Assembly: GCA_963833125.1 (NCBI GenBank)
Contig: CAWHWX010000004.1
Coordinates: 1 to 64,000 of the forward strand
Direction of reading: 5' to 3'
Source: Candidatus Bathyarchaeota archaeon
GTDB lineage: Archaea; Thermoproteota; Bathyarchaeia; 40CM-2-53-6
Length of the DNA: 64,000 bases
Position numbers and translations under genes: made by a program. This document shows positions 2,018 through 29,717 of the stretch, in pieces (the first letter of the stretch is position 1; each line of letters opens with the position of its first letter). The notes under the pieces were generated by a model. The model ran no database searches and was not told the origin of the DNA. It was given only the letters and a program-made list of their open reading frames with translations.

Positions 2018-2989
2018 TTGGGTAAATGGAAACTTCCTCCGACCGGCGGACATATGGAGAAACAAGACGGAATCTACTTCCAAAACATGACGATGAATCA
2101 AGTGCACGAGAGACTCAAGAAGAATGACCTGATCATAATCCCTCTCGGGGCAACGGAAAATCACGGCCCTCACGCAGCCGTTGGCGAAGACATCTATCTC
2201 GTTTGCCGGATGGCTGAGATGGTGGCTGAGAAAACGGGGTGCACGGTAGCACAACCCTTCTGGTACGGCTCACACCCTTACCACCATATGGGCATGCCTG
2301 GTACGGTAATTATAGACGACGACGCATTCAAAGCGACGTTACGTGGGATTATGGCTGGCTTCTGGAACGCGGGGTTCCGAAAACAGATTCTATTCAATGG
2401 ACACGGACAGGAGTACGTCATCCCTTCAGCAATTCACCAATTTGCAAAAAGATACCAGGTTCCTGGCATCTTCATCAACCTGAACTGGTGGGCGATTTCT
2501 CCTCAATTCATCAAAGACAAGGAACATGGCGGGCCATTCGAAACTCCGTTCATTCACGCAGATGAGGTTGAAACGTCCTACAGCCTGGCACTATTCCCTG
2601 AGTTGATGAAGATGGAAGACGCGGTTGATGCAGAAACCTATGGTTTCCTTCCGAACCAGGGCCGGCATGTGGACAAAGCGGCTAACGCATACCAACGCCC
2701 AATCGCCTGGTACGGCCAAATGGGCGCTTCACCAATGGAGATCTACGCATATCCGAAAGGAGTGGTAGGCAAAGCAACCCTCGCCAAGGCGGAGAAGGCT
2801 TTCCCGGGTGTTGAGGCAATTCTCGATTACATGGTTGAGCTGCATGATGATATAATGAAGAAATTCCCTGCAGGCGTCCTCCCACCAATCGAGCAGGTGA
2901 CGAATCGAAACAAAGCCGACATCGAAGCCGTCATCAAAGGACCTTTGAACGGTGGAAGGCACATCTACACTCTCGCCTACCCACCGTAA
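2018..2989 (+). CDS. iolN: 3-dehydro-scyllo-inosose hydrolase (creatininase family)
   Basis: GATENHG, GED, NGHGQ, FIHADEVETS motifs; closely resembles Thermotoga IolN as recalled (YFQNMTM, GGPFETPFIHADE, RPIAWYG). Confidence 0.85.
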   Translation: MGKWKLPPTGGHMEKQDGIYFQNMTMNQVHERLKKNDLIIIPLGATENHGPHAAVGEDIYLVCRMAEMVAEKTGCTVAQPFWYGSHPYHHMGMPGTVIIDDDAFKATLRGIMAGFWNAGFRKQILFNGHGQEYVIPSAIHQFAKRYQVPGIFINLNWWAISPQFIKDKEHGGPFETPFIHADEVETSYSLALFPELMKMEDAVDAETYGFLPNQGRHVDKAANAYQRPIAWYGQMGASPMEIYAYPKGVVGKATLAKAEKAFPGVEAILDYMVELHDDIMKKFPAGVLPPIEQVTNRNKADIEAVIKGPLNGGRHIYTLAYPP

Positions 2990-3152
2990 GCCAAGAAGCG
3001 CTCTCATACTTTTCGAAAAAGGGCATCAGCAAGGGGGAGCTCTCGGCTCTTTGCCTAAAAGACTTTCACACCGTTTTCCCTCGATTCGTTCGAAACGAGC
3101 TCCCCAGCATTTTTGTCAAAAGCACCCATTCAATCCTCTCAACTCATTTCGG

Positions 3153-4308
3153 CTAAGCGAAGGGAATTATGGATTTACCTTCCGCGAAGCGGCTGAGGCG
3201 AAAATCTCTAACGTCGACTCCCTTAGTTTTGCCGTCTAACACGAACTCCGCCATCAGCCGTCCTGTGCATGGTGAGAACCTGAAGCCGTGCCCACTGAAC
3301 CCCACTGCACAGTAGAGGCCATCGAAGCCTGGAAGCTCATCCAAGATAGGATGACCATCAGGTGACACATCGTACGGCCCCGAATAGCCTCCTTTGCTCA
3401 CCGCCGCTGCCATGGCTGGAAGTCTCTGAACGAGCTTGTGTGCCAGGTTCGGAACCGTCTCGGAATCCAATCCATCCGGAAAATTGTCGGGATCACAGGC
3501 CAAACCCGGGAGTTTCTATTTCCCCGACCAAGGTGTGGTCTCCTTCAGGTTTGATGTACAGGTCATTCTCGAAATCGTCCATTATGATTCGAGGGCTTTT
3601 CGTCTCATCCGCTAGCTTGAACAAACATACCTGTTTGCGAGTAGCCTTAATGGGCAATTGTACGCCGAGGTCGCCTAGTAGTTTCGGTGCCCAAACGTTC
3701 GCAGCGACAACGACCTTGTTCGCGCGGAATGTTCCTTTGTTGGATTCAATTAGTTTCATGCCACCTTCAACTTTGATTCTCTTGACAAGTGCGTTGGTTT
3801 CGATTCGTGCGCCTAATTTCTCTGCTGCTTTCCCGTAGGCGTTTGTGGTTTCGACCGGATCTGCATAACCAGCAAATGGTTCGTGAATTCCTACGGTCAA
3901 ATCATCGGTGAGGACGCCTGGCTGGAGTTTGGCTATTTCTTGTGGGGAGATTAGTTGTGATTTTGCTCCAAGGTTTTTCTGAGCGGCTAATGTCTTTTTG
4001 ATTCGTTCCTCGAACGTCTTACCGGTCAGTCCCATCCAACCCGTGGGGCGGAACCCTGAGTTGCCTCCGATTCTGTCTGCGAAATTTCTGAAGACATCAA
4101 TACTTTCTAGAAGCATTTTTACAAGGGGTTCGCTGGCGTTCCACACGCCAAGGTTCACTATTGCGCTTGACTTTCCGGTGGCGCCCCAGGCTAGGTGGCC
4201 GCGTTCGAGCAATAACACATCTTTGCATCCCATACGGGCCAGTTGTAATGTTGTGCTTGCTCCAACACAGCCCCCGCCGATAACCGCGACTTCTGCAGTT
4301 TGATCCAT
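3153..4308 (-). CDS. FAD-dependent amine oxidoreductase (DAO / sarcosine oxidase beta-like); one frameshift near 3500
   Basis: IGGGCVG and GATGKSSA in ORF 3493-4308; SPDGHPILD and GFSGHGFRFSP in ORF 3153-3503. Confidence 0.85.
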
Positions 4309-4486: not shown

Positions 4487-5845
4487 CTAAGCGACCGCTT
4501 TCAACGATTCCTCGGCTGCCTTCAGCGTCAAGTCGATGTCATCTTCGGAATGGGCTGTGGATACGAAGAGATGTTGATACTGAAGCGGATGAGATAACAC
4601 TCCTCTCTTCAACATCTGTCTATGATAGGCGTTGTACTTGGCCCCATTGCATGTGAGGAATTCTCTATAGTTTCGAATCTTCTTCAGAGGTGTGAACAGA
4701 ATTTGAACACCTAATTGCGCCATACCTTGAACAATCGCCTCTGTTTTTGTTGAGGAGACAAGTTGCTCCAACCCTTCTTGAAGCTTCTTTCCGATTTTGT
4801 TCATGTGGCGGTAGTTTTCACCGTTGTTTCTTGTTAGCTCAGTTAGAGTTGCGTATGCTGCGGCACATGAAATTGGGTTCCCGTTGAATGTCCCTGCATG
4901 CATGATCTTGCCTGGTCCGACCTGCTCGAAGATTTCTCTTCTTCCGGTGATCGCTGCTATCGGAAAGCCACCCCCCAGTGCTTTCGCGAAACAGGCCAGG
5001 TCGGGAGTGACACCGAAATATTCTTGGGCACCTCCTGCGGCCAGCCGAAATCCTGTGATGACTTCGTCAAAGATCAGCATCACGTCATACTTCTCAGTAA
5101 TTTCCTTCACAGTTTTGAGATACCCTTCTTCGGGTGGCGCAATTCCTATGTCCATCATCACAGGTTCCATTATTACTGCAGCAAGTTCGTTCGCATGCCT
5201 CTTGACCGTTTTTTCGAGAATATCCGAATCGTTCCAAGGGATAACTACCGTGTTCTTTGTTGTATCATCTGGGATCCCAGGGCTCGCGGGCACCTTGTAA
5301 GGAGCAATCTCTGATCCTAATGCGGCCAGAGGTGCTCCCTACAATGTTCAGTAGGACATAATCGTGTGCGCCATGGTAGTGGCCTTCAAATTTGATGATC
5401 TTGTTTCGACCAGTGTACCCTCTGGCGATTCTTATTGCGCTCATAGTTGCTTCAGCTCCTGTCATGGAGAACCGCATCATCTCGGCGTTCGGAACCATCT
5501 CGTGGATTTTTTCCGCGAGTTTCACCTGTAGCTCATCAAGCAAAGCGTATTGTAGCCCATTTTCAAGTTGGGCCTTTACCGCTTGAGTATGCTTGGGTGG
5601 CAATGGCCGAGAATCAGCGGACCGAAGCCAAGAAGGTAGTCGACATAGACGTTTCCATCAACGTCCCAGACTTTCGAACCTGCGCCTTTGCGCAACGTCA
5701 ATGGGTAGGGATCGTAGGTTGGAGAGCATTGCGCATTTGAACTCCCACCACCAGGGATAAGCTTACTCGCTCTAACGAAGAGTTCCCATGATTTTCGTGT
5801 TAAGACCCTTAACGTATTCAGGGTACTCGATGAGACATTGCCCAA
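4487..5845 (-). CDS. PLP-dependent class III aminotransferase (GSA-aminomutase-like); two frameshifts (~5590, ~5300)
   Basis: DVDGNVYVDYLLGFGPLILGH, GHYHG, IFDEVITGFR and FAKALGGGFP (PLP Lys) across three consecutive ORFs. Confidence 0.85.
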
Positions 5846-6099: not shown

Positions 6100-8018
6100 A
6101 TGAGCACTACGTCTCGTGCTAAGAAACCGATTATCGCTGTACTAGTCATTGTAATTGTCCTTGTTGCAGGGGTATGGTACTACACTTCGACACAAACCGC
6201 ACTGCTGCTACCTCAACTACATCCTCTCTTTTCAACACCGTTTCGACCAGTGGGCAAGGCGGTGCCCCTTCGACCCTTGTGATTGACGATCCATTCTGGC
6301 CTAGCGGAGACTTGAACCAATTCAACTCCATTTACGCAATACCCTATCCTGACTGGTTGACGTATACTGTCTATCAGTCGCTCGTTACGCTCGATGGGAA
6401 TGCACTTTACTCTTCAGGAGATGTTAAGGTCCTCCCGATGCTGGCAACCGATTGGAACGTATCCTCTGATGGTACGACCTACACGTTCAACCTGAGGCAA
6501 AACGTAGCATTCTCGAACGGCGACCCCTTCAATGCATACCAGGTGTGGGGACAATTTTACGGCTTGTATTACTTATCGGGCAACAGTAGTGCTTGGTTCA
6601 ACGCTTACCCCGTTTTCGATACATCAACAATAAAATTCGGGCCAGCTACGCTTGCGTTGATGGCGCAAAGCGGTCTGATCAACCCGACACCTGATTTGAT
6701 GAAGATAATGACTGATACAAGCCAACCGATCTACGTAACTAGTCAATATCAGATAGTCTTCCACCTTAAGGCTCCATTCGGGTATTTCCCCACCGTTTTA
6801 CCTACCTATGTGGGATTGATTTTTGATACTCAGTATGTTCTTCAAAATGGTGGATTCGGCACGCCGACAGCCTTCAACACCCAGTTCAATCAGCATCCCA
6901 TTCCAGGGACAGGGCCTTACGTTGTGACGGATGTTTCGGAGAATTCCTACGTGAAATTTGCCAAGAATCCAACCTACTGGGGAGCCAATTTGAGCGCTGC
7001 AGATATCCAAGCTAATGCATACATTGACCCAGGACATGTACAGAACGTAATCATATACTCGAAGTCTGATGACGTAGCGAGATACACAGATTTGTCGACG
7101 GGAGCTGCCCAGATAGCTGCAATCCAAACCCAAGACTGGCCGCAGGTTTTGAGCAACCCTGACAAGTATGGATATTTTGTAATGCCGGATTCCTCGATGG
7201 CTTTCGTAGGCATCTCAATGAATACTCTTCGATATCCTACAAACATTACAGCGTTTCGGAACGCCATCGTCCACGCCGTGAATGTGACTGACATTTCGCA
7301 ACGAGTCTTCTTTGGCGGGCTAGCTCCAATGGTTGGCCCTGAGTATCCGGCCCAGAAGCAATATTATGACTTGGGAAACCTGCCACCCTATTCGTACGAC
7401 TTGACGTTGGCGAAGCAGTACTTGGCTCAGTCTGGGGTTGACGTCACGAAGCTAACGCCACTCGAGTTCCGAGTGGTTTCTGGATGTGGGTACTGTTACT
7501 CTACCGCGCAAATAGTTCAAGCGGATTTGGCTCAAATTGGGATCACGTTGAACATTGAGGTTACACCGGGTAACCAGTATGCGTTGCCCTACGTGGCGGG
7601 TGCCGGGTCATTTGCGGGGGGTGTGAACGCTTCGCAACAGGTGGCACAGCTCACTTGGTTCGGAACGGGAACTTTTGCCCCTACTGCCCCAACTCCGGCA
7701 GACGCATGGTTGATGTTCGGTAGCGATAAAGCACCTGCCAACAATTTTGCCATATACTCTAATCCCATAGTCCAGAAGTGTGTGGACGATTGGACAACGG
7801 TGAGTGACCCGAATGTCCTCACGACCGTCTGCACCGCTGCTCAAAAGCAATTCTACGATGATGCACCCTACATCTGGCTCGGCGCAATCAAACTAGTCTT
7901 CGGCGGAGGATCCGTTGCTTGGCAGAAGAGCGTTGTTAAGAGCGCACTCTTGGACCCGATATTTACAGGCATAAGCTCAACAGTCATCTTCAACACTGTA
8001 ACATTCGTGGGCAGCTAA
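6100..8018 (+). CDS. ABC transporter substrate-binding protein, family 5 (Opp/Dpp type); frameshift near 6200
   Basis: N-terminal TM anchor in ORF 6088-6282; LATDWNVSSDGTTYTFNLRQNVAFSNGDPFNA and GTGPY motifs. Confidence 0.9.
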
Positions 8019-8111
8019 AGCAGCTCAAACTAGCACCCTACCCCGCTATTTTTCGAATCGGGGTGAGGTGATACAAACATATTTCGCGATAACGGTTCGG
8101 TCTAAGGTGAA

Positions 8112-9134
8112 ATGAACCTAGCAGCGTACATATTACGCAGGGTGGGCTTCGGCATCCTCGTAATACTCAGCGTCATGACCATAACGTTCGCTCTATCGCA
8201 TAGCCTTGGCGGGGACCCAATTTACGCCTGGTTGGGAAAGGCCGCTGGCATGCATCCCGACCTCGCTCAGGCTTACATCCAGAAGTATCATCTCCACGAC
8301 CCGGTTTACGTTCAGTACTACTACTATCTGGTAAACCTGGCGCAAGGAAATATGGGTTACTCGCCCTCACGCGATTTCATTCCTGTCACCCAGGCAATTG
8401 CGGAAAGCCTTCCTTACACGATCCAAATTGCGTTATTCGCAATTATCATAACACTTGTTGTGGGCGTATTCTTAGGAGTTGTATCGGCTCGGTATCATCA
8501 TACGCCAATTGACGGGGCGATTCGAGCATTCTACTTGACTGGATATGCTTCCCCGCCGTTCTTTGTAGCCTTGATATTGCTAATAATATTCACGTATCTG
8601 CTTGGCATTTTACCGAGTGGCGAAGCCTTTGACCCTAGCTTTGCGAGACCATTCTGGATCACTGGAATACCGATCATTGACGGCGTGCTCGAAGGAAATT
8701 TTTCGTATAGTGCCAGCGCCTTTATTCATTTGATTCTTCCCAGTGCTGCGCTCGCGCTTGTGACTTTCGGAATCGTAACCAGAGTGCTCCGCAGCTCACT
8801 TCTGGAGATCATGCACACCAATTACATCCGAACGGCTCGGGCGAAGGGACTTGATGAGAACACGGTGTTCTACAAGCACGGTCTACGGCACGCACTCATT
8901 CCGATAGTGTCGCTCTCCTCTCTGATCGTAACCTGGCTGATCACGGGAACAATTTTCGTGGAGAACGTGTTCTCATATCCTGGACTGGGCCGCTATCTGG
9001 TTCAAGCACTCAACGGACAGGACTACCCAGGAATACTTGGATCGGCCATAGTGTATGCACTTGTTATTGTCACGGCCAACTTAATCGCAGACATCCTGTA
9101 TGCAGTCGTCGATCCTCAAGTCAGACTTGGTTGA
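8112..9134 (+). CDS. ABC permease, DppB/OppB type
   Basis: YIRTARAKGL EAA loop, VENVFSYPGLG, DILYAVVDPQVR. Confidence 0.93.
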   Translation: MNLAAYILRRVGFGILVILSVMTITFALSHSLGGDPIYAWLGKAAGMHPDLAQAYIQKYHLHDPVYVQYYYYLVNLAQGNMGYSPSRDFIPVTQAIAESLPYTIQIALFAIIITLVVGVFLGVVSARYHHTPIDGAIRAFYLTGYASPPFFVALILLIIFTYLLGILPSGEAFDPSFARPFWITGIPIIDGVLEGNFSYSASAFIHLILPSAALALVTFGIVTRVLRSSLLEIMHTNYIRTARAKGLDENTVFYKHGLRHALIPIVSLSSLIVTWLITGTIFVENVFSYPGLGRYLVQALNGQDYPGILGSAIVYALVIVTANLIADILYAVVDPQVRLG

Positions 9135-13166: not shown

Positions 13167-13982
13167 TTGGAACCCTGCATCAACCAAGACACACTCAGGA
13201 CAACCCCTACCGAGGAATTCCTCGAAATCTCAAGCCACTCGGGATTCGATGCGGTAGAATTTACAATGGATAAAATTGAGGCAATTCTACAGAAAAAAAG
13301 TCTACAAGAAACTAATGCCTCAGTCCGCCGAAAGGGGCTCTCAGTCGCGAGCATCAACGGTCCGGAGAATTTCAACCTGCTCGACGATCGGGAGTTCACG
13401 GAACTTCTCGAGCGTACAGATAAGATTGTGGAAGCGGCTGGAGAACTTGATTGCCAACTGCTCATCCCGGTTCCCTCACCTACGAAGGAAGGAATGACTC
13501 AGGAAACTTCGATAGCTCAAACTGCCGCGGCCCTCTCAACGATGACTGCACGTTACGGATCTCGGATCAGGTTAGGGCTGGAGTTTCTCGGCATGAGGGA
13601 CTGTAGCATAAATAATCTTCAAGCAGCTATGGAAACGATAAAGCGCGTGGATAGGCCAAATGTTGGCCTTGTACTGGATTCCTTCCATATGTATCTTAGC
13701 GACTCCAGATTCTCCGATATCAGTCAATTGGAGGCTAAACAGGTCTTTCTGGTCCACGTTAACGACTCTGAACAGGGCGACAAGAGGACACTCACGGATG
13801 CCAACCGCCTTTATCCAGGTGAGGGAGAGATCGATTTGAAGGCGTTTGCCTTGGCTTTGAGTGGGATTGGTTATGACCACTACCTGAGTCTAGAATTACT
13901 TCGACCAGTCTACTGGCAGCAGAACCCCGTGGAAGTAGCCGCAAAAGGTCGCGATTCTCTGAATCGCGTATTTGGAATATGA
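13167..13982 (+). CDS. Sugar-phosphate isomerase/epimerase TIM barrel (IolI-like)
   Basis: GLEFLG, LDSFH, VHVND, RLYPGEG, SLELL metal-binding pattern. Confidence 0.85.
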   Translation: MEPCINQDTLRTTPTEEFLEISSHSGFDAVEFTMDKIEAILQKKSLQETNASVRRKGLSVASINGPENFNLLDDREFTELLERTDKIVEAAGELDCQLLIPVPSPTKEGMTQETSIAQTAAALSTMTARYGSRIRLGLEFLGMRDCSINNLQAAMETIKRVDRPNVGLVLDSFHMYLSDSRFSDISQLEAKQVFLVHVNDSEQGDKRTLTDANRLYPGEGEIDLKAFALALSGIGYDHYLSLELLRPVYWQQNPVEVAAKGRDSLNRVFGI

Positions 13983-23777: not shown

Positions 23778-25245
23778 CCCCGCGTAGCCTCCTCACATCG
23801 CGTATTCCCATGGCGCTGAGTATTTCGATTAGTTGATCATGCCACGAAGAAAGCAGGTTAACAAGCCGCTGCTCACCCCACTCCAAATCAAACTTCTCAG
23901 CAGCTATGCGACCAGATTCAGGTGAAGCGCATTCACCTAGAAATCGTGACTGTAATGCTACGAGAACTGTTGTATCTATCGCGACAAGGTCGGCTCCGCA
24001 GATAATCGCTTTCGGAACATGCTCGGCTCTAGTGATCCCGCCACTCGCGATGAGCGTCACATCATCCCTGAGCGATTCTGTAACGAGGGTCGTGTGGACC
24101 TTGCGAATCATGTCCTTGACATGCGACGGATCGTCGCTGGCCCATGATTGCCCGTGGTAGTTGGCTACGAGATGAATGACGTCGACCCCGTTTCGAACAA
24201 AATCGGCTGCCGTTTTGGCCGAGTCAATAGTCAACGGTAAGCGAACAGAGATTGGAGCGTTGGGGTTGACCTTCCGGATCTCTTGAACTGTTGATGAATC
24301 GTAACTTGCCAGTTCAATCAAGCGGGCGTCACGAATCCAACCGGCGTCGTCTCCGGGGTTACCGGAGCGAATTAGTGGGATGAGTTGGTCGCTGTTAGCT
24401 TCTCGAAGTTGTTTTGATTGAGCGGGTGTTGCTATGAAGATTGTATCGGCTCGAACTGATGCGCCCGCAACTGATTCCAATATGTTACGACTGTTTAGGT
24501 CGGGTGGTAGATAGTCGAAAATGATCGGTAGAGAGATTTCAATGGTTTTGGAAAACCGGCCGTCCTCCTTGTTGAACTCGAGGAACTTTCTCTTACTGCC
24601 GACATCCACTAGAGTTGAGATGAACTCTCTTCCATAAACGCCATCCCTTGTTGGCCTCACAATTTCGGACATGTCAGTCCAGATCGAATCCCAGCCTGGG
24701 CCGGCGAACGGCCCCTTGTATCCCATCCCTTTGATCGGTATCTTCCCTGTCTCAGCCTCGTACAGAACCGTGGCGACAGGTGAACCGCTTGTTGTCGCGG
24801 CCCCTTCTGAGGCCCAGTAAGAGTCAGCGAACTCGTAAAATTCGGGGTTGCGGTCAACTGTGCAAACGCCAGGGTACTCTTGGACGCACCGCATACACCC
24901 TGTACATTTTTCCTTAATCGGATGGAACCCACCGAGTGGTCCACTGAACGTTCCATAAATGCATGGCCTACTCACAAGCGCATGCCTGTACTCTTTCTCG
25001 CGTAGTTTCAATCCATACCCGAATGCTTCCTTCAAGATAATTCGTGCAAGCCCTACCTTGCTTACACGCGGATTGAATGGTGCAGGGAGTTTCTTCCGTG
25101 CGGGGGTGAGCTTGGTTTCGATCTTGTACCGCTGATAGGTATCGCGAAGCGCCGGATCAATGACGCTGTCTGGGCGGGTTTTGGGGTCGTCTAGCAAACT
25201 GAGCGCTCCATCCCCGCCATCTGTAATGAACCCGCACCATATCAC
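23707..25245 (-). CDS. Ferredoxin plus divergent glutamate synthase FMN-domain protein; real start possibly TTG 25197
   Basis: CTGCMRCVQE Fe-S motif, WTDMSEIVRPTRDG, IASGGI, AMGIRDVRRLRG. Confidence 0.8.
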   Translation of the reverse strand: MIWCGFITDGGDGALSLLDDPKTRPDSVIDPALRDTYQRYKIETKLTPARKKLPAPFNPRVSKVGLARIILKEAFGYGLKLREKEYRHALVSRPCIYGTFSGPLGGFHPIKEKCTGCMRCVQEYPGVCTVDRNPEFYEFADSYWASEGAATTSGSPVATVLYEAETGKIPIKGMGYKGPFAGPGWDSIWTDMSEIVRPTRDGVYGREFISTLVDVGSKRKFLEFNKEDGRFSKTIEISLPIIFDYLPPDLNSRNILESVAGASVRADTIFIATPAQSKQLREANSDQLIPLIRSGNPGDDAGWIRDARLIELASYDSSTVQEIRKVNPNAPISVRLPLTIDSAKTAADFVRNGVDVIHLVANYHGQSWASDDPSHVKDMIRKVHTTLVTESLRDDVTLIASGGITRAEHVPKAIICGADLVAIDTTVLVALQSRFLGECASPESGRIAAEKFDLEWGEQRLVNLLSSWHDQLIEILSAMGIRDVRRLRGDVGRAMFNEELEKEAFGDITRRN

Positions 25246-25338
25246 TTGAACAAATATAACTACTATGGGTCATTCACTAGACATTCAGATATCCTAACCT
25301 TATATTTGTGGATGAACGTTCAGAAAAGAGGCTCAAAC

Positions 25339-25800
25339 TTGGCAACAACTGGACGATTGGACATAGATGAAGTTGACAGGAAGATATTGAATGAACTGCT
25401 TCGTGATTGCCGGAGATCCTATCGATCCATAGCACGCAGAGCAGGAGTTTCAGTAGGAACCGTCCTATCCCGGATTCGTAGGCTCGAGAAGTCTGGTGTA
25501 ATCAAGGGTTACTCGGCCGTCCTCGATCATGACAAGCTTGGCTACCAATTGACTGTCCTAGCCGAGATTACAGTCTCGAAGGGTAAGTTGCTCGAAATGG
25601 AGGAAGCGATCGGAAAGCTACCGAACACTTGCGCAGTCTACGATGTAACCGGTCTAACTGATGCCGTTGTTCTCGCAAAGTTCCGAAGTCGTGAGGAATT
25701 AAGCAAATTCACCAAGAGCCTCCTCAGCATGCCCTTTGTCGATCGAAGCAACACTCACGTGGTTCTAACGACCGTTAAGGAAGACTTGCGTCTGTTGTGA
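25339..25800 (+). CDS. Lrp/AsnC family transcriptional regulator
   Basis: DEVDRKILNELLRDCRRSYRSIARRAGVS HTH, RLEKSGVIKGY, YDVTG; TTG start at 25339. Confidence 0.93.
   Translation: MATTGRLDIDEVDRKILNELLRDCRRSYRSIARRAGVSVGTVLSRIRRLEKSGVIKGYSAVLDHDKLGYQLTVLAEITVSKGKLLEMEEAIGKLPNTCAVYDVTGLTDAVVLAKFRSREELSKFTKSLLSMPFVDRSNTHVVLTTVKEDLRLL
25742..25800 (+). repeat. attL-like repeat: recoded 3' end of the Lrp gene
   Basis: atcgaagcaacactcacgtggttctaacgaccgttaaggaagacttgcgtctgttgtga encodes RSNTHVVLTTVKEDLRLL*. Confidence 0.9.
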
Positions 25801-25821
25801 ATTATACTAAAGAAGACCTAT

Positions 25822-26091
25822 TCATTTACCACGTTTGCCGTAGCGTTCTAGTTCTTGCGCCCTATACATAGTAGCCCTGGTACAGAACTCTTTGGCTATG
25901 CAGTAGAACAGTTTGGCGGCATCCTCATCCTCTGAGAGATAGCAAGATTGGCTACTGAACTCTAAATGCTTCTTGAAAGCACTAATGAATTTTCGGTGTA
26001 GCTTTTGATAGAAGTAGACCCGCCTAGCTTCGTTCTCAGTTGGTAAATCGTATTCGACGACGTACAACCAATTCACCAGAGACACATGCAT
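25822..26091 (-). CDS. Stand-alone Cas2/VapD-like small protein
   Basis: 89 aa; YVVEYDLP...RR..FYQKL...SSQSCY matches the Cas2/VapD YD and QxS pattern; SD AGGTG directly before the ATG. Confidence 0.55.
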   Translation of the reverse strand: MHVSLVNWLYVVEYDLPTENEARRVYFYQKLHRKFISAFKKHLEFSSQSCYLSEDEDAAKLFYCIAKEFCTRATMYRAQELERYGKRGK

Positions 26092-26172
26092 ACACCTGTA
26101 AGATATATGGGTTGCCGCCCCAATTAAAGCTTACGTTCGTATGCATCACACGGTATGTATACAGGTGTATGC
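26088..26172. repeat. Perfect 13-bp inverted repeat flanking a 59-bp promoter-like spacer
   Basis: gcatacacctgta (26088-26100) and tacaggtgtatgc (26160-26172). Confidence 0.85.
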
Positions 26173-26407
26173 TATGCTATGCTTGCCATAGCTTAGGAAT
26201 TTTTCAGGGGAGATAACGAATTATCCCCAACCTCTAAAGACGCTTTAGCCCCTACCTCTTTGAAGAGCCTGTATTCGTGAGATGGCAACTGCAATTACAG
26301 TCTGTTGTTCCCACTACGCCGTAGTGAGTTATTCCATTTGGCTTGTTTGCTCTTTCAAGGCCCTTACAAAAGTCGTTATGTTCCAATCACAATCACCTCG
26401 TTTCTAG

Positions 26408-26638
26408 CTAAGGCCAGAAACCACCGTTAATGCAGCCCACTTCCTCGCATCTGTGAGGTGGGTTGTGCCCAAAATCCAGAGCACATTTGCATATGTGAGT
26501 CGGGTGCTCCGTAGTCTGTCTAAATTCAGGGCATTTTGTCACAATTATCATCGCAAAGGAATCTAAGCGGTGCAGATACTTTACATAGCAAGGGAGTTTT
26601 GTGACCTCATAGTACCGTGAAAGTGTTCCTACACCCAA
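26408..26638 (-). CDS. Small Cys/His-rich hypothetical protein (element cargo)
   Basis: CPEF...HICKCALDFGHNPPHRCEEVGC; start uncertain. Confidence 0.4.
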   Translation of the reverse strand: MGVGTLSRYYEVTKLPCYVKYLHRLDSFAMIIVTKCPEFRQTTEHPTHICKCALDFGHNPPHRCEEVGCINGGFWP

Positions 26639-26681
26639 TCGCTAATAATCGCAAGATGATTAGTTGACGTCTTGAAAGCTT

Positions 26682-27134
26682 ATGAATCGTTGGATGATTG
26701 CGACTGTAATTCTAAGTGTTGCGTGCGTAGCATTAACTGGAACTTCTGTAGCATTCTATAGCGAGTTACAAACCGCAACTAAGACGCAAAACGGCGGACT
26801 CACCTACATCGGGTCAATTACTAATTTCTCTGAGAATTATAACTTAACGTACGGCTCAATTACGGTTAACTACGTGTCAGCAGGTAGCGAAGGAGGCGGC
26901 GTAGCCCTATACTCTAACGATACGTCAGTGCGTGTTCTGATGGTAGTTCATTATCGAGGTTTCATAAACACGATAGTTTTAACTCCATACCAAGCAGGCA
27001 CATTCACGACTGCCGTCGGCGGTCAGGAATACATTGCTTGGTCGGAAACTAATATTGGTCCCTACAACAACGAGTATGAAGCTCTCGTTCCTTCGGGTAC
27101 TACCGAGCTTGATTTCTACATTCTAACTAACTAG
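26682..27134 (+). CDS. Membrane-anchored/secreted hypothetical protein (element cargo)
   Basis: N-terminal hydrophobic helix, beta-rich body, N-glycosylation sequons NFS/NLT/NDT. Confidence 0.7.
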   Translation: MNRWMIATVILSVACVALTGTSVAFYSELQTATKTQNGGLTYIGSITNFSENYNLTYGSITVNYVSAGSEGGGVALYSNDTSVRVLMVVHYRGFINTIVLTPYQAGTFTTAVGGQEYIAWSETNIGPYNNEYEALVPSGTTELDFYILTN

Positions 27135-27230
27135 GCATTATTCATTGCAGAACTAAAACCACAGCTACCCACATTTAAGGTAAAGACAAATGGCTAACAC
27201 TAGTTCAAAAAATGCAGGTAAGGATGGAAT

Positions 27231-27491
27231 ATGATTCATGAAAAACGGCTAAACGCCGTAATTAATAGACATGGAGAGGCATTGCTGAGAGCCTTAGAAG
27301 ACGCTCCTAACCACCAAGGGCCCATTCAACTCTCTCTCGATGGAGTTGTTGATGTCTCAAATGCTCTAGCCGCTATCGCAATGTACCGTTCAACTAAACG
27401 TCTCGAACGATTAACTGGAGCACTTGTAGCACTTACTGGCGTCTTGGCAATTCTGACAGCAACTCTCGTTTGGGAAGCTTTCTTCAAGTGA
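27231..27491 (+). CDS. Small protein with C-terminal TM helix (element cargo)
   Basis: STKRLERLTGALVALTGVLAILTATLVW. Confidence 0.6.
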   Translation: MIHEKRLNAVINRHGEALLRALEDAPNHQGPIQLSLDGVVDVSNALAAIAMYRSTKRLERLTGALVALTGVLAILTATLVWEAFFK

Positions 27492-27632
27492 ATTTAGGGG
27501 TTTCACTTTCCCTTGCGGAAATAGGCTAACGCGTCCTTTTGTAAAATGAACTCGAACCCTGCCTCAATTGGCCTGGTATCTGATTCAACGTTTTTCAGTT
27601 TGGAAAGTTACTGTTTAGTCTCGTTGTTCGCC

Positions 27633-27788
27633 ATGCAGTGTCCCAAATGTGGTGAGGCAATGAGTTACTTGAAATTCTCTTGGTACTGCATTTTAGATGA
27701 CGTTTGTTTGGACAAATTCGGTAATCCTCTCAACAGGTTCGACCCGAATTATATGGCTAATACCCATGTACTTAGCAGCATTACCTAG
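27633..27788 (+). CDS. Zinc-finger microprotein (element cargo)
   Basis: MQCPKCG...WYC..DDVC; overlaps an antisense ORF. Confidence 0.45.
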   Translation: MQCPKCGEAMSYLKFSWYCILDDVCLDKFGNPLNRFDPNYMANTHVLSSIT

Positions 27789-28103
27789 AGTTGCAGTCTG
27801 CGTGGAAGCATACTGACCGGGGTAGTCCTCGTAAGTAACATTCCGTGATTGGATTGATGGGTTTTGAGATGGATAAACGAGCCCTGCTTGTTTATCCAAT
27901 TTCTGTGCTTGTGCTGGACTGAAAAGGTTGAATGATGTTCCGTAAGTTATGACTTGATGCTTGGAAATACCACTTGAATAGATCACTGGAACGAGAGTAA
28001 CGAAAGCTAATGCCACAAAGACGCACGCATAAACTCTCCTAGAGAGTGAGCCTTGGTCTGGGCGCATCAATATTTTTGCAGGTCCCCTAATAGACACAGC
28101 CAC
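27693..28103 (-). CDS. Hypothetical membrane-anchored protein (element cargo)
   Basis: ORF track; hydrophobic VFVALAFVTLVPVIY segment; 3' end uncertain. Confidence 0.5.
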   Translation of the reverse strand: MAVSIRGPAKILMRPDQGSLSRRVYACVFVALAFVTLVPVIYSSGISKHQVITYGTSFNLFSPAQAQKLDKQAGLVYPSQNPSIQSRNVTYEDYPGQYASTQTATLGNAAKYMGISHIIRVEPVERITEFVQTNVI

Positions 28104-28180
28104 GAACTTAGCCGTTCTGAAAAACGTTGGTTGCGCAAGGTTAGTCTTAAACTAAAAATATGACATTTTTGGTCTAGACG

Positions 28181-28417
28181 TTACGGGAGCGGACTTGCGG
28201 TAATAGCGACCAAAAATCTTTCCTTTAACCACTTACAATCGATGATTTCCATTCCAGTATCTGAGTAAATAGCGGAAAGCTCCGAAAAGCTGAACCCTTT
28301 ATTCCAATATAGTCCGTACATCCCAGAAAGGGGAAGCCCTAGATTAACGATAGTCTGCGTGATAGGTTTCGGCAGCATACTCAGAATTGAGTCTCTTACA
28401 CGCATAAGTAGACGCAT
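28181..28417 (-). pseudogene. Truncated gene fragment, possibly the C-terminus of a SAM methyltransferase
   Basis: GFSFSELSAIYSDTGMEII resembles class I MTase C-termini; the frame extends only ~20 codons upstream to a stop. Confidence 0.35.
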
Positions 28418-28624
28418 ACGAACTGTCGAATTAGTAAGAACTTTTGACCATTCAAAATGTACTGCTTGGCTTCTCTACGTTCCTGATTAGTGGACGCACG
28501 GACGTGTTCCTTCTGACTTGTCTCTGAGATGTCTGTAGGGTGCGGACCTTGCGGCATCCGTTCTGTGGGTGCGGCAGCCTTCCTCAGATTTCAGGCTTCA
28601 GGTGGCGGCCCTTAACGCTTATTT

Positions 28625-28683
28625 ATCGAAGCAACACCCACGTGGTTCTGACGACCGTCAAGGAAGACTTACGCCTCCTCTAA
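28625..28683 (+). repeat. attR-like repeat: displaced original 3' end of the Lrp gene
   Basis: atcgaagcaacacccacgtggttctgacgaccgtcaaggaagacttacgcctcctctaa encodes the same peptide; 13-bp identical core atcgaagcaacac. Confidence 0.9.
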
Positions 28684-28700
28684 CCTAGGAGGAGGGCTGG

Positions 28701-29717
28701 TTGGCTTATGCGTCCCGACGATCAAGCTATCTAATCGCGGCCTTCGGCGCAGTCATTCAAGTCTTCGTATGGTGGTGGGACGCACTCTCGCAGGTGCTAT
28801 TTGGAAACGTGGGCTCTTGGTGGATCCCAACACACTTGGCATTCTATGCAGCCATTGCGATAACAGTCATCGGAGTTTGGCAAGGTTTCCGGTATTCCCC
28901 GAAACTAACTCCCCTTTCGCTCAGCCCGATTCGATTTGTGAACATCGCGGGGTTGAAGCTTGCCGGAGTGGGTTGCTTAATCGAGATCATAGCAAGTATC
29001 TGGAATGAAATCTTTCACCGCGCCCTTCTGGACCATCCTGGGATTAGTCCTGCAAACGCGCTGCTCACGGTTGGAATGTTAACTGTGAACCTTGGCATTG
29101 TGATCGGGTTGGTAATTGAGGGTGGGATCATTAGCCACGGGCTCGTCATTAGCGTCCGCTGCAAGGCGACGTGTAGTTGCTCTTTTCGTTTTGTTGAGTT
29201 TCTCTTCGATATGGCTTGCCGTTGCCGGCGCTTTCATTTTCCTCGGACGGACATTTCGTTCATTCCCAGCGAATTGGTTAGTCGCAGGTTTTGCTCGCTT
29301 TCATGGCGACATTCGTCGTTCGTCCCTGTGAAGAAGGTAATGCCAAGGTTCGGATCAGTCGTCGCCGTTGGATTTGCTTTCAACGCTGTAACGTACATTG
29401 TTGTCGCGGTCTATTCAGGCATGCCTTTCTACTTTCCTTGGGGGTTTCTCCCCGTCATTTTGTTTGATTTGGTCTTGTACGTTCTGACTCCGATCGTCGG
29501 TTTCAAGCGTACTATCATCTTTTCATCGTTAATCGTGGGTGTGTTTTTCTGGGCGACCTACTACCCGTTCACAATTTACTTGTTCCCTTGGTCGTTTGCG
29601 TTCCAACTCCCAGTCTTTGCTGTGGTTCTGGGAAGTGTGGTCGGAGGGTTAACGGGGAATAAGGTCTACGCGAGTCTCTCCTCAGTAGTCCTTAGTGACG
29701 TTGCAGTTTCCGTGTGA
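28701..29717 (+). CDS. Polytopic membrane protein with WD/WN-xxx-H...P-x-H type motifs; compensating frameshifts ~29150-29310
   Basis: SD AGGAGG before TTG; many TM segments; the hydrophobic middle section is in ORF 29116-29331. Confidence 0.7.
   Translation: MAYASRRSSYLIAAFGAVIQVFVWWWDALSQVLFGNVGSWWIPTHLAFYAAIAITVIGVWQGFRYSPKLTPLSLSPIRFVNIAGLKLAGVGCLIEIIASIWNEIFHRALLDHPGISPANALLTVGMLTVNLGIVIGLVIEGGIISHGLVISVRCKATCSCSFRFVEFLFDMACRCRRFHFPRTDISFIPSELVSRRFCSLSWRHSSFVPVKKVMPRFGSVVAVGFAFNAVTYIVVAVYSGMPFYFPWGFLPVILFDLVLYVLTPIVGFKRTIIFSSLIVGVFFWATYYPFTIYLFPWSFAFQLPVFAVVLGSVVGGLTGNKVYASLSSVVLSDVAVSV

What the first reader, a model, noticed from the sequence alone, without database searches (positions are those of the whole stretch)
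25742..28683. Integrase-less element that integrates into an Lrp gene and repairs it with a synonymously recoded 3' end
Seen: the last 59 bp of the Lrp gene (25742-25800) recur at 28625-28683 with 9 differences. All 9 are synonymous, including TGA versus TAA, so both copies encode RSNTHVVLTTVKEDLRLL*. They share a 13-bp identical core, atcgaagcaacac. The 2.9 kb between them looks more AT-rich and holds short orphan ORFs. Established: site-specific elements that target genes carry a replacement 3' end, and archaeal elements mostly target tRNA genes. Inference: the left copy is the element-borne, selectively maintained replacement and the right copy is the displaced host end. The purely synonymous divergence implies long-term use of this protein-coding att site. 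No recombinase is visible, so this is a decayed provirus or a satellite mobilised in trans.
Basis: partly seen in the sequence, partly recalled or inferred. Interest (0 to 1): 0.85.

Follow-up and report, generated by a model that had tools for sequence, protein, structure and literature searches.

The report
Integrase-less insert in archaeal Lrp gene
A 2.9-kb piece of foreign DNA sits in the tail of a regulator gene of a soil archaeon and supplies a silently re-spelled replacement tail, but it has lost its own integrase, so it is a clean example of a known kind of stranded mobile element rather than a new mechanism.

Summary
Window 25742-25800 and 28625-28683 are a 59-nt direct repeat with 9 differences, all synonymous, and a 13-nt identical core. 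Chance gives 9 of 9 synonymous in 2 of 2,000,000 trials.

The 2,824 bp between the copies is an insertion:
- 10 of the 11 same-genus loci fetched have Lrp followed 15-22 nt later by the 28701 gene.
- A 258-nt soil-metagenome contig, about 98% identical, joins 25755 directly to 28639.

The right copy is the host's: it is closest to the two nearest relatives. The left copy is foreign. The insert has 44.2% GC, lower than 99.8% of genome windows of the same size.

The element is not quite free of integrase traces. The minus strand of 27506-27568 (to 27619 by profile) holds a relic of the 3' end of a tyrosine-integrase gene. Nothing else in the element resembles an integrase.

My reading is a decayed, att-flanked integrative element, like the bacterial CIMEs. 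Mobilisation in trans is not excluded. MGEs in the 3' ends of protein genes, including an AsnC-family regulator gene, are already reported in Thaumarchaeota (PMC6563490), and e14/icd is the classic parallel. I score it as a new member of a known kind, of modest interest.

The parts
25339..25800 (+). Lrp/AsnC-family regulator gene, 153 codons from TTG 25339. It is a hybrid: host sequence up to the core, element-borne last 46 nt and TGA stop. The protein is unchanged.
   Evidence: Pfam HTH_24, HTH_AsnC-type and AsnC_trans_reg. NCBIfam Lrp models match below their cut-offs. 97% aa identity to G019 and G016. The start was chosen by comparison with the G015 orthologue.
25742..25800 (+). attL: the left copy of the 59-nt repeat. 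The 13-nt identical core is 25742-25754 and is the likely crossover region. 25755-25800 is the element-borne recoded gene end.
   Evidence: 9-15 differences from every host-lineage copy. Together with the next 21 nt it resembles the G015 junction.
25801..28624 (.). Interior of the inserted element: 2,824 bp, 44.2% GC.
   Evidence: Absent from 10 of 11 same-genus loci and skipped by a metagenome contig. GC percentile. No second copy in 58 other genomes of the family.
25822..26091 (-). o89: an 89-aa protein of a conserved family of unknown function. The predicted fold is beta-alpha-beta-alpha-beta, ferredoxin-like.
   Evidence: Homologues in G000:C22, G015:C23, G019 and genus g10. 155 metagenome proteins at E <= 0.001, none with Pfam. 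AF2 model with pLDDT 81.6. Only weak, generic fold matches.
26682..27134 (+). o150: a 150-aa ORF with a hydrophobic N-terminus. Near-orphan.
   Evidence: One homologue, 49% identity, apart from itself. No family above cut-off.
27231..27491 (+). o86: an 86-aa ORF with a hydrophobic C-terminus.
   Evidence: 49% aa identity to an ORF in G002:C78. No family.
27506..27619 (-). Relic of the 3' end of a tyrosine-integrase gene. 27506-27568 reads IEAGFEFILQKDALAYFRKGK*. The part up to 27619 is weaker and holds an in-frame stop.
   Evidence: 82-88% nt identity to the ends of integrase genes or their relics in G000:C12, G016:C3, G019:C53, G019:C5 and G014:C2. A profile of 5 local integrases matches positions 281-319 of 319, i-E 4e-5, and nothing else in the element.
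27546..27788 (+). o80: an 80-aa ORF with a CPKC motif. Its start overlaps the integrase relic on the other strand. Whether it is a gene is uncertain.
   Evidence: no family and no homologue found.
27693..28103 (-). o136: a 136-aa orphan ORF with a hydrophobic N-terminus.
   Evidence: Only itself among 5.8 billion clustered proteins. No family.
28181..28417 (-). o78: a 78-aa ORF with no relatives found.
28625..28683 (+). attR: the right copy of the repeat. It has the same 13-nt core (28625-28637), then the displaced original host end of Lrp with its TAA stop. The original 17-nt spacer to the next gene is still attached.
   Evidence: Closest to G019 (6 differences) and G016 (7). 9 relatives' Lrp ends pair with this copy by BLAST. 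The metagenome contig joins 25755 to 28639.
28701..29717 (+). 338-aa membrane-protein gene that directly follows Lrp in relatives. It is now separated from Lrp by the insert.
   Evidence: 39-59% aa identity and the same position in 10 of 11 same-genus loci. No Pfam or NCBIfam family.

Best explanation
This is the stranded remnant of a site-specific integrative element in a soil Bathyarchaeia genome. The organism is inferred from the record titles of the more distant Lrp relatives.

A circular element carried an attP made of a 13-bp core (ATCGAAGCAACAC) followed by its own, synonymously different copy of the last 15 codons and stop of the host's Lrp/AsnC gene. A tyrosine-type integrase exchanged strands within the core (inferred). 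As a result:
- The host gene now ends in the element's copy, and the protein is unchanged.
- The original 46-nt end and stop were pushed 2.9 kb downstream, where they still sit 17 nt in front of the next gene.

The element later lost its integrase gene, or derives from a lineage that had already lost it. Only the last 21-38 codons survive, as a relic on the minus strand. It keeps both att sites but cannot move by itself. This is the state that students of bacterial ICEs call a cis-mobilizable element (CIME).

Shown: the insertion, its borders, which copy belongs to whom, the absence of an integrase, and the relic. Inferred: the integrase-mediated crossover in the core, that the relic's parent gene did the job, and present immobility.
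For: 1. Repeat and its non-random synonymous pattern: (2 of 2,000,000 random trials).
2. Empty sites: 10 of the 11 same-genus loci fetched have Lrp, then 15-22 nt, then the 338-aa gene.
3. A 258-nt contig of soil run X1 lies on 25561-25755 with 4 differences and continues at 28639-28701 with 1 difference, skipping 2883 nt. 11 letters fit either side of the joint. The site is therefore polymorphic at about 98% identity.
4. Polarity: attR differs from G019 and G016 by 6 and 7 of 46 nt, while attL differs from every copy by 9-15. 9 relatives pair with attR, and only G015 and G018 pair with attL.
5. Foreign composition: 44.2% GC, lowest 0.22% of 5,947 windows.
6. No integrase: PF00589 read through stops finds 13 places in the genome, none in C4:25801-28624. 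Pfam on 16 interior ORFs finds nothing.
7. Relic: a profile of 5 local integrases hits only 27506-27619, i-E 4e-5. The relic has 82-88% nt identity to integrase gene ends elsewhere, and an intact integrase in G016:C3 has the same C-terminus.
8. Not an assembly artefact: the longest identical run between the copies is 13 nt. Run X1 also holds a 138-nt stretch of the element, 26615-26752, at 100% identity.
Against: - The relic lies mid-element, 1.05 kb from attR. The DNA between it and attR shows no trace of an integrase body, so the loss was a deletion or replacement, not slow decay. Its timing relative to integration is unknown.
- The one intact integrase found with this C-terminus sits in an element flanked by tRNA-type repeats, not Lrp-type. 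The relic's parent may therefore not be the enzyme that used the Lrp site.
- No attP, circular form or full-length relative with this att site was found. Two viral-contig scans found nothing. The one metagenome-contig scan found 2 contigs, both of the G015 type. 58 other family genomes hold no second copy.
- The site being polymorphic within about 2% divergence also fits a recently arrived, still mobilisable element.
- A 97%-identical o89 exists in another assembly. Its context could not be fetched.
Confidence: 0.62

Rival explanations
1. This is a working integrase-less satellite. The 2.9-kb unit is selected to carry only att sites plus a few small genes (o89 and others), and it is integrated and excised by the integrase of a helper element or virus, in trans or by tandem accretion.
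For: - Both att sites are intact and the 13-nt core is identical.
- The site is polymorphic at about 98% identity, and run X1 holds both the empty site and a 100%-identical piece of the element.
- o89 is intact and belongs to a conserved family. A paralogue lies on a contig that starts with an integrase gene.
- The genome holds several apparently intact tyrosine integrases.
- A 97%-identical o89 occurs in another assembly.
Against: - No other sequence in the 88%-complete genome resembles the att repeat: blastn-short finds at most 17 nt elsewhere. No helper with the same attP is therefore in hand.
- No second copy of the element was found in 58 other family genomes, in viral contigs or in the metagenome scan.
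- Most cargo ORFs are orphans.
- The integrase relic shows descent from an integrase-bearing ancestor.
- o89 homologues in 20-kb stretches of G015:C23 and G019:C1 have no integrase of this family nearby.
Confidence: 0.22
2. This is a Campbell-type insertion by general homologous recombination, not by a site-specific enzyme. A circular foreign DNA that happened to carry a congener's Lrp end recombined with the chromosome through the short homology.
For: - The structure, a single reciprocal crossover with homology limited to the 59 nt, is formally what a single homologous crossover would give.
- No integrase is present.
Against: - The crossover must have fallen within the only 13 identical bases, at the very edge of an 85%-identical 59-nt stretch. 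From general knowledge of recombination, this is far shorter than homologous recombination normally needs.
- G015 carries a similar element-type junction at the same place, which points to a repeatedly used specific site.
- An integrase relic is on board.
Confidence: 0.06
3. This is an assembly or binning artefact: a chimeric join at a repeat places unrelated DNA inside the Lrp locus.
For: The genome is a metagenome-assembled draft: 39 contigs, 7% contamination. The raw reads of the source could not be examined (one search found one run, held as contigs only).
Against: - The two copies share at most 13 consecutive identical bases. By general knowledge this is too few to mislead a k-mer assembler.
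- A chimera would not produce a second, synonymously recoded, in-frame copy of exactly the gene's end.
- The contig is 251 kb, with normal synteny on both sides.
Confidence: 0.03

Closest known systems
[quoted passage not shown] 2019, PMC6563490; sections 6 and 8 and searched passages read, supplementary Table S2 not seen)
   Same: These are archaeal elements of the same phylum-level neighbourhood. 14 of 68 are in the 3' ends of protein genes, and an AsnC-family regulator gene is among the targets. One case has a 13-bp att site. The frame is reconstituted by MGE-derived sequence with a new stop. Sites were verified by empty sites in relatives.
   Different: The cryptic integrated elements whose description I read carry an integrase (section 13 passages). 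In the example described there, 8 nt were replaced by non-homologous sequence. Here 46 nt are replaced by a homologous, purely synonymous copy, and the integrase is reduced to a relic. The host here is Bathyarchaeia.
Prophage e14 in the icd gene of E. coli K-12 (Hill et al. 1989, as described in PMC13626634; passages read)
   Same: The element sits in the 3' end of a protein gene. The gene 'extends into' the element. A displaced C-terminal fragment (icdC) lies at the far end. Excision swaps the ends and shows up as a cluster of synonymous changes.
   Different: e14 is bacterial, 15 kb, encodes its own recombination functions and excises on SOS induction. Its two ends also differ by two amino acids. 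Here the two ends encode identical peptides, and no excision is shown.
CIMEs, cis-mobilizable elements of streptococcal ICE/IME families (definition in PMC5704250; passages read)
   Same: Both are elements that have lost their integration and transfer genes but kept attL and attR at the end of a target gene. They could be moved when a related element integrates beside them.
   Different: CIMEs are defined in Firmicutes as decay products of conjugative elements, and their mobilisation has been shown by experiment. Here there are no conjugation genes, no tandem partner and no test.
SSV-type 'suicidal' integrases of archaea (PMC7253208; abstract seen only)
   Same: Both involve archaeal site-specific integration that leaves a partial integrase gene in the integrated state.
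   Different: There the att site lies inside the integrase gene, so the N- and C-terminal parts flank the element at the att sites. Here no ORF crosses either att site, and the relic lies mid-element.

Membership tests
att-flanked site-specific integrative element (tyrosine-recombinase type) | Direct repeats (attL/attR) at both borders that share a core | tested here: met
   59-nt repeat with a 13-nt identical core at 25742 and 28625.
att-flanked site-specific integrative element (tyrosine-recombinase type) | An empty site (attB) in relatives that equals left flank + core + right copy | tested here: met
   10 of 11 same-genus loci. A metagenome contig joins 25755 to 28639.
att-flanked site-specific integrative element (tyrosine-recombinase type) | Element-encoded integrase | tested here: not met
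   No PF00589 match in C4:25801-28624. No Pfam hit in 16 ORFs. The family profile hits only a 3' relic at 27506-27619.
att-flanked site-specific integrative element (tyrosine-recombinase type) | Excision to a circle with attP | not testable with these tools
   Only one run was found, held as short contigs. No attP junction is among the 4 contigs laid.
CIME-like remnant (att sites kept, recombination genes lost) | attL and attR retained, integration genes lost | tested here: met
CIME-like remnant (att sites kept, recombination genes lost) | Descent from an autonomous element | tested here: inconclusive
   The integrase 3' relic shows an integrase-bearing ancestor for at least that segment. No full-length relative with the same att site was found.
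CIME-like remnant (att sites kept, recombination genes lost) | Mobilisation by a related element integrating alongside | not testable with these tools
   No tandem partner at the site. This needs an experiment or population reads.
SSV-type integrase element | Integrase gene split by integration, with its halves abutting attL and attR | tested here: not met
   No integrase-like ORF touches either att site. The only integrase-like trace is 1.05 kb from attR.
Transposon or casposon with target-site duplication | Terminal inverted repeats, an identical short duplication, and a transposase or Cas1 | tested here: not met
   No inverted repeat pairs the two ends. The repeat copies differ at 9 of 59 positions. 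No transposase or Cas1 family was found.
Cas2 family (considered for o89) | Match to Cas2 sequence profiles, or a clear Cas2 fold match | tested here: inconclusive
   No Pfam match for 7 family members even at E <= 10. Foldseek's top rows are Cas2 but weak: E 0.027-0.05, TM about 0.4. The VIA wide search gives only generic ferredoxin-like matches, with Z no higher than 6.6.
Lrp/AsnC regulators (the target gene) | N-terminal HTH_AsnC plus C-terminal AsnC_trans_reg (RAM) domain | tested here: met
   PF13404 at 58.5 bits and PF01037 at 45.8 bits, both over their cut-offs.

The most novel reading that the evidence does not exclude
The 2.9-kb unit is an active, minimal, integrase-less integrative satellite of Bathyarchaeia. 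It keeps a protein-coding att site usable across species by carrying a silently recoded gene end, borrows a helper's integrase, and has the uncharacterised o89 family as its own maintenance or recombination-directionality factor.
Probability: 0.12. Interest if true: 0.6.

Novelty: new member of a known kind. Interest (0 to 1): 0.3.

Why it matters
Mobile elements of Bathyarchaeia are little described; the listing turned up work on their viruses only. This locus gives an exactly delimited att site in a protein gene, with attL, attR and natural attB sequences in hand. A cognate integrase could therefore be sought and tested.

It also shows in an archaeon the same trick known from e14 and phage 21 in E. 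coli: the element pays for using a gene as a landing pad by bringing a synonymous spare end.

As biology it is expected rather than surprising. The same class of target, an AsnC-family regulator gene, is already listed for Thaumarchaeota (PMC6563490).

Tried and rejected
- Provirus: no virus-like family among the ORFs (Pfam; PHROGs, best E 0.014 to a family of unknown function). No relative of o89 in viral contigs and no match of the junction motif there.
- tRNA target or tRNA-derived relic: ARAGORN finds no tRNA in the window or in 9 loci. Rfam finds nothing in 25000-29500 at E <= 1.
- SSV-type split integrase: rejected.
- Integrase decayed in place between the relic and attR: a family-specific profile against the six frames, with stops as X, found nothing there.
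- Integrase 3' ends as att sites of a family of mini-elements: I considered this because such relics recur downstream of intact integrases in G014, G019 and G000:C12. The 75-nt pair in G014:C2 differs by non-synonymous changes and a lost stop, and two other relics extend upstream as decayed genes. They are ordinary pseudogene fragments.
- o89 as Cas2: not supported beyond a weak fold hint.
- G015 as a full second example: its Lrp end and next 21 nt resemble the element's left junction. However, its assembly holds no second copy of the Lrp end, its contig ends 3.3 kb on, and its copy of the 338-aa gene is cut to the last 61 codons on another contig. It counts only as a probable remnant.
- The G015:C23 region with an o89 homologue: borders could not be defined.
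- Extra core-like sites in the window: 3 matches at up to 2 mismatches against 1.95 expected.
- Run X1: only 4 short contigs lay on the stretch, so nothing can be said about parts without cover, about attP, or about habitat beyond the run's label.
Supplementary Table S2 of PMC6563490, which lists each att site and target, could not be seen. It may show whether the AsnC-targeting element restores its gene the same way.

Full report
OBSERVATION

Window 25742-25800 and 28625-28683 form a 59-nt direct repeat, start-to-start spacing 2883. A script counted 9 differences. Eight are third-position or Leu first-position changes, and one turns TGA into TAA. Both copies therefore read RSNTHVVLTTVKEDLRLL* in the frame of the Lrp gene. 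The first 13 nt, ATCGAAGCAACAC, are identical, and this is the longest identical run. To the left of the core, and to the right of the stop, the two copies are unrelated.

In the 46 nt after the core, 39 of 138 possible single changes are synonymous. Nine random changes were jointly synonymous in 2 of 2,000,000 trials. Both copies have therefore evolved as the end of a working Lrp gene.

The 2,824 bp between the copies has 44.2% GC, against 50.1% for the genome. Only 0.22% of 5,947 genome windows of the same size are as low.

IT IS AN INSERTION, AND THE RIGHT COPY IS THE HOST'S

A DNA search of 40 relatives returned 11 same-genus loci. In 10 of them (G019, G016, G014, G021, G022, G004, G018, G013, G011, G020) the order is upstream 512-aa gene, Lrp, 15-22 nt, 338-aa membrane-protein gene. 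In the window the displaced right copy keeps the same 17-nt spacer to the 28701 gene as in G019 and G016.

Other same-genus genomes gave only partial matches or none, and their sites were not examined.

The one sequencing run that held part of the stretch is a soil metagenome, coded X1, held as short contigs. It contains a 258-nt contig that lies on 25561-25755 with 4 differences and continues at 28639-28701 with 1 difference, skipping 2883 nt. Eleven letters fit either side of the joint. The same run holds a contig lying on 26615-26752, inside the element, with no difference. The site is thus polymorphic among genomes about 98% identical.

Polarity. Over the 46 nt after the core, the right copy differs from the two closest relatives, G019 and G016, by 6 and 7. 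The left copy differs from every copy by 9-15. In a search of all 58 other genomes held for the family, 9 relatives' Lrp ends paired with the right copy, and two (G015, G018) with the left.

A misassembly is very unlikely. The copies share no more than 13 consecutive bases, and a chimera would not create a second, in-frame, synonymous copy of exactly the gene's end.

WHAT IS INSIDE

The target is an Lrp/AsnC regulator gene with HTH_AsnC and AsnC_trans_reg domains. It most likely starts at TTG 25339 (153 codons), by comparison with G015.

The insert holds these ORFs:

| ORF | Coordinates | Strand | Notes |
|---|---|---|---|
| o89 | 25822-26091 | - | conserved family, see below |
| o150 | 26682-27134 | + | hydrophobic N-terminus; one homologue at 49% identity |
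| o86 | 27231-27491 | + | hydrophobic C-terminus; a 49% relative in G002:C78 |
| o80 | 27546-27788 | + | CPKC motif |
| o136 | 27693-28103 | - | orphan |
| o78 | 28181-28417 | - | no relatives found |

None matches Pfam, PHROGs or NCBIfam above a cut-off.

o89 belongs to a real family. There are paralogues or homologues in G000:C22, G015:C23, G019:C1 and genus g10, and 155 metagenome proteins at E <= 0.001, all without Pfam domains. One of these is 97% identical to o89. Its AF2 model (pLDDT 81.6) is a small beta-alpha-beta-alpha-beta fold. Foldseek's top rows are Cas2 proteins, but weakly (E 0.027-0.05, TM about 0.4). The independent wide search gives only generic ferredoxin-like matches, with Z no higher than 6.6. 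I leave its function open.

THE RECOMBINASE QUESTION

A search of the whole genome for PF00589, reading through stops, found 13 places, none in the element.

A 68-nt piece of the element (27501-27568) matched DNA next to integrase matches elsewhere: G000:C12, G019:C53, G019:C5, G016:C3 and G014:C2, at 80-88% identity. Read on the minus strand, 27568-27506 gives IEAGFEFILQKDALAYFRKGK*. That is the C-terminus of a local family of tyrosine integrases. The intact integrase in G016:C3 ends IEAGFEFILQKDGLVYFRKRK*, and the broken one in G000:C12 has IEAGFEFILQ.

A profile of five such integrases, run against the six frames of the element, hit only 27506-27619 (profile positions 281-319 of 319, i-E 4e-5).

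The element therefore carries the last 21-38 codons of an integrase gene and nothing of its body. The 1.05 kb between the relic and attR would just fit an integrase gene of this family reading inward from attR. It is now filled by unrelated, orphan sequence.

Similar 3' relics lie downstream of intact integrases in G014 and G019. Where I checked, they are ordinary decaying fragments with non-synonymous changes.

The intact G016:C3 integrase sits in a 4.4-kb unit flanked by 34-nt repeats that look like a tRNA 3' end. The relic's parent gene need not have had Lrp specificity.

MECHANISM

The geometry is that of a single reciprocal crossover between a circle and the chromosome:
- Homology is confined to 59 nt.
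- It starts exactly at the core.
- The left junction is host-then-element.
- The right junction is element-then-host.

The exchange must have fallen inside the 13 identical bases. I infer a tyrosine-type integrase acting on that core. The 46 nt beyond it is not needed for recombination but keeps the target gene whole, which is why it is free to drift only synonymously.

This is the arrangement known from e14 in icd of E. coli: icd runs into the prophage, a C-terminal fragment icdC lies at the far end, and excision shows up as clustered synonymous changes (PMC13626634, passages read).

I rate the readings as follows.
- Stranded remnant, 0.62. With no integrase and no other att-like sequence in the 88%-complete genome, the element is most likely a remnant equivalent to a CIME as defined for streptococcal elements (PMC5704250, passages read).
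- Working satellite mobilised in trans, 0.22. This is not excluded. The att sites are intact, the site is polymorphic, o89 is conserved, and intact integrases exist in the genome.
- General homologous recombination, 0.06.
- Artefact, 0.03.

'LONG-TERM USE'

The synonymous pattern proves selection on both copies. It would also arise from one capture of a congener's gene end.

The only further support is G015. Its Lrp ends CTATTGTAA, against CTGTTGTGA in the element's copy, and the next 21 nt match the element's left end at 16 positions. None of the empty sites shows this. G015 has no second copy of the Lrp end in its 92%-complete assembly, and its 338-aa gene is truncated on another contig. I take it as a probable remnant of a related integration, no more.

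The two metagenome contigs that matched the junction motif encode proteins identical to G015's.

COMPARISON AND NOVELTY

Krupovic et al. 2019 (PMC6563490; sections 6 and 8 read) report the following for Thaumarchaeota:
- 39 of 68 integrated elements are in tRNA genes, 15 are intergenic, and 14 are in the 3'-distal parts of protein genes.
- The named targets include an AsnC-family transcriptional regulator gene.
- In one example a 13-bp att site is used, and MGE-derived sequence supplies a new stop.

The present case is the same kind of thing in the sister class Bathyarchaeia. The organism is named from the record titles of the more distant relatives. It has two particular features: a long, purely synonymous replacement end, and an integrase reduced to a relic. 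I did not find a description of this element or of the o89 family. The searches were made, which were not aimed at o89. I file it as a new member of a known kind.

LIMITS

- No raw reads of the source sample were available.
- The context of the metagenome homologues could not be fetched.
- Supplementary tables were closed.

Noticed in passing
L018 = G000:C22:1-9457: A 9.5-kb contig of the same genome starts inside a tyrosine-integrase gene (PF00589, 75 bits). It also carries an o89 paralogue (44-47% identity) at 4936-5181, among ORFs I did not annotate. It is probably part of another mobile element, cut by the contig end.
   Followed up: partly
L061 (G014:C2:255000-262000), L062 (G019:C5:14500-21000), L059 (G019:C53:6000-12500), L019 (G000:C12:8000-22000): Short relics of integrase 3' ends lie downstream of intact or broken integrase genes. 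In L059 one lies 17 nt after the stop of a different integrase. In L061 a 75-nt pair has 83% identity, 2.7 kb apart. The one pair I translated differs non-synonymously, so these look like graveyards of tandem elements. Why 3' ends survive so often is unexplained.
   Followed up: partly
L060 = G016:C3:148000-155000, 2463-2496 and 6820-6853: A 4.36-kb unit is bounded by 34-nt direct repeats (94% identity) that look like a tRNA 3' end. An intact integrase gene (2526-3407) starts 30 nt from the left repeat. It appears to be a small integrated element of the usual tRNA-targeting kind. ARAGORN was not run on this locus.
   Followed up: no
L054 (G015:C23) about 7940-8165 and 13459-13707: Two stretches of about 220-240 nt recur at 73-87% identity in many places, in G000 (at least 6 contigs for the second) and in other genomes of the genus. 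They are a multi-copy repeat or small RNA family of unknown nature. L054 14201-14357 is conserved across several families and may be an RNA gene.
   Followed up: no
L040 = G015:C52:5021-5233: In G015 the orthologue of the 338-aa membrane-protein gene is reduced to its last 61 codons. It is preceded by unrelated membrane-protein genes. This suggests a deletion or rearrangement at the same locus where G015's Lrp end looks element-type.
   Followed up: partly
window 25439-25587 in run X1: Two contigs of run X1 cover the same part of Lrp with different sets of differences (2 and 5). The soil sample therefore holds at least two close strains besides the one with the empty site.
   Followed up: no
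window 28540-28683: A 47-codon frame opens at GTG 28540 inside the element's right end and runs in frame into the displaced Lrp end, stopping 17 nt before the 28701 gene. It might preserve translation or coupling for that gene after the insertion. This was not tested.
   Followed up: no
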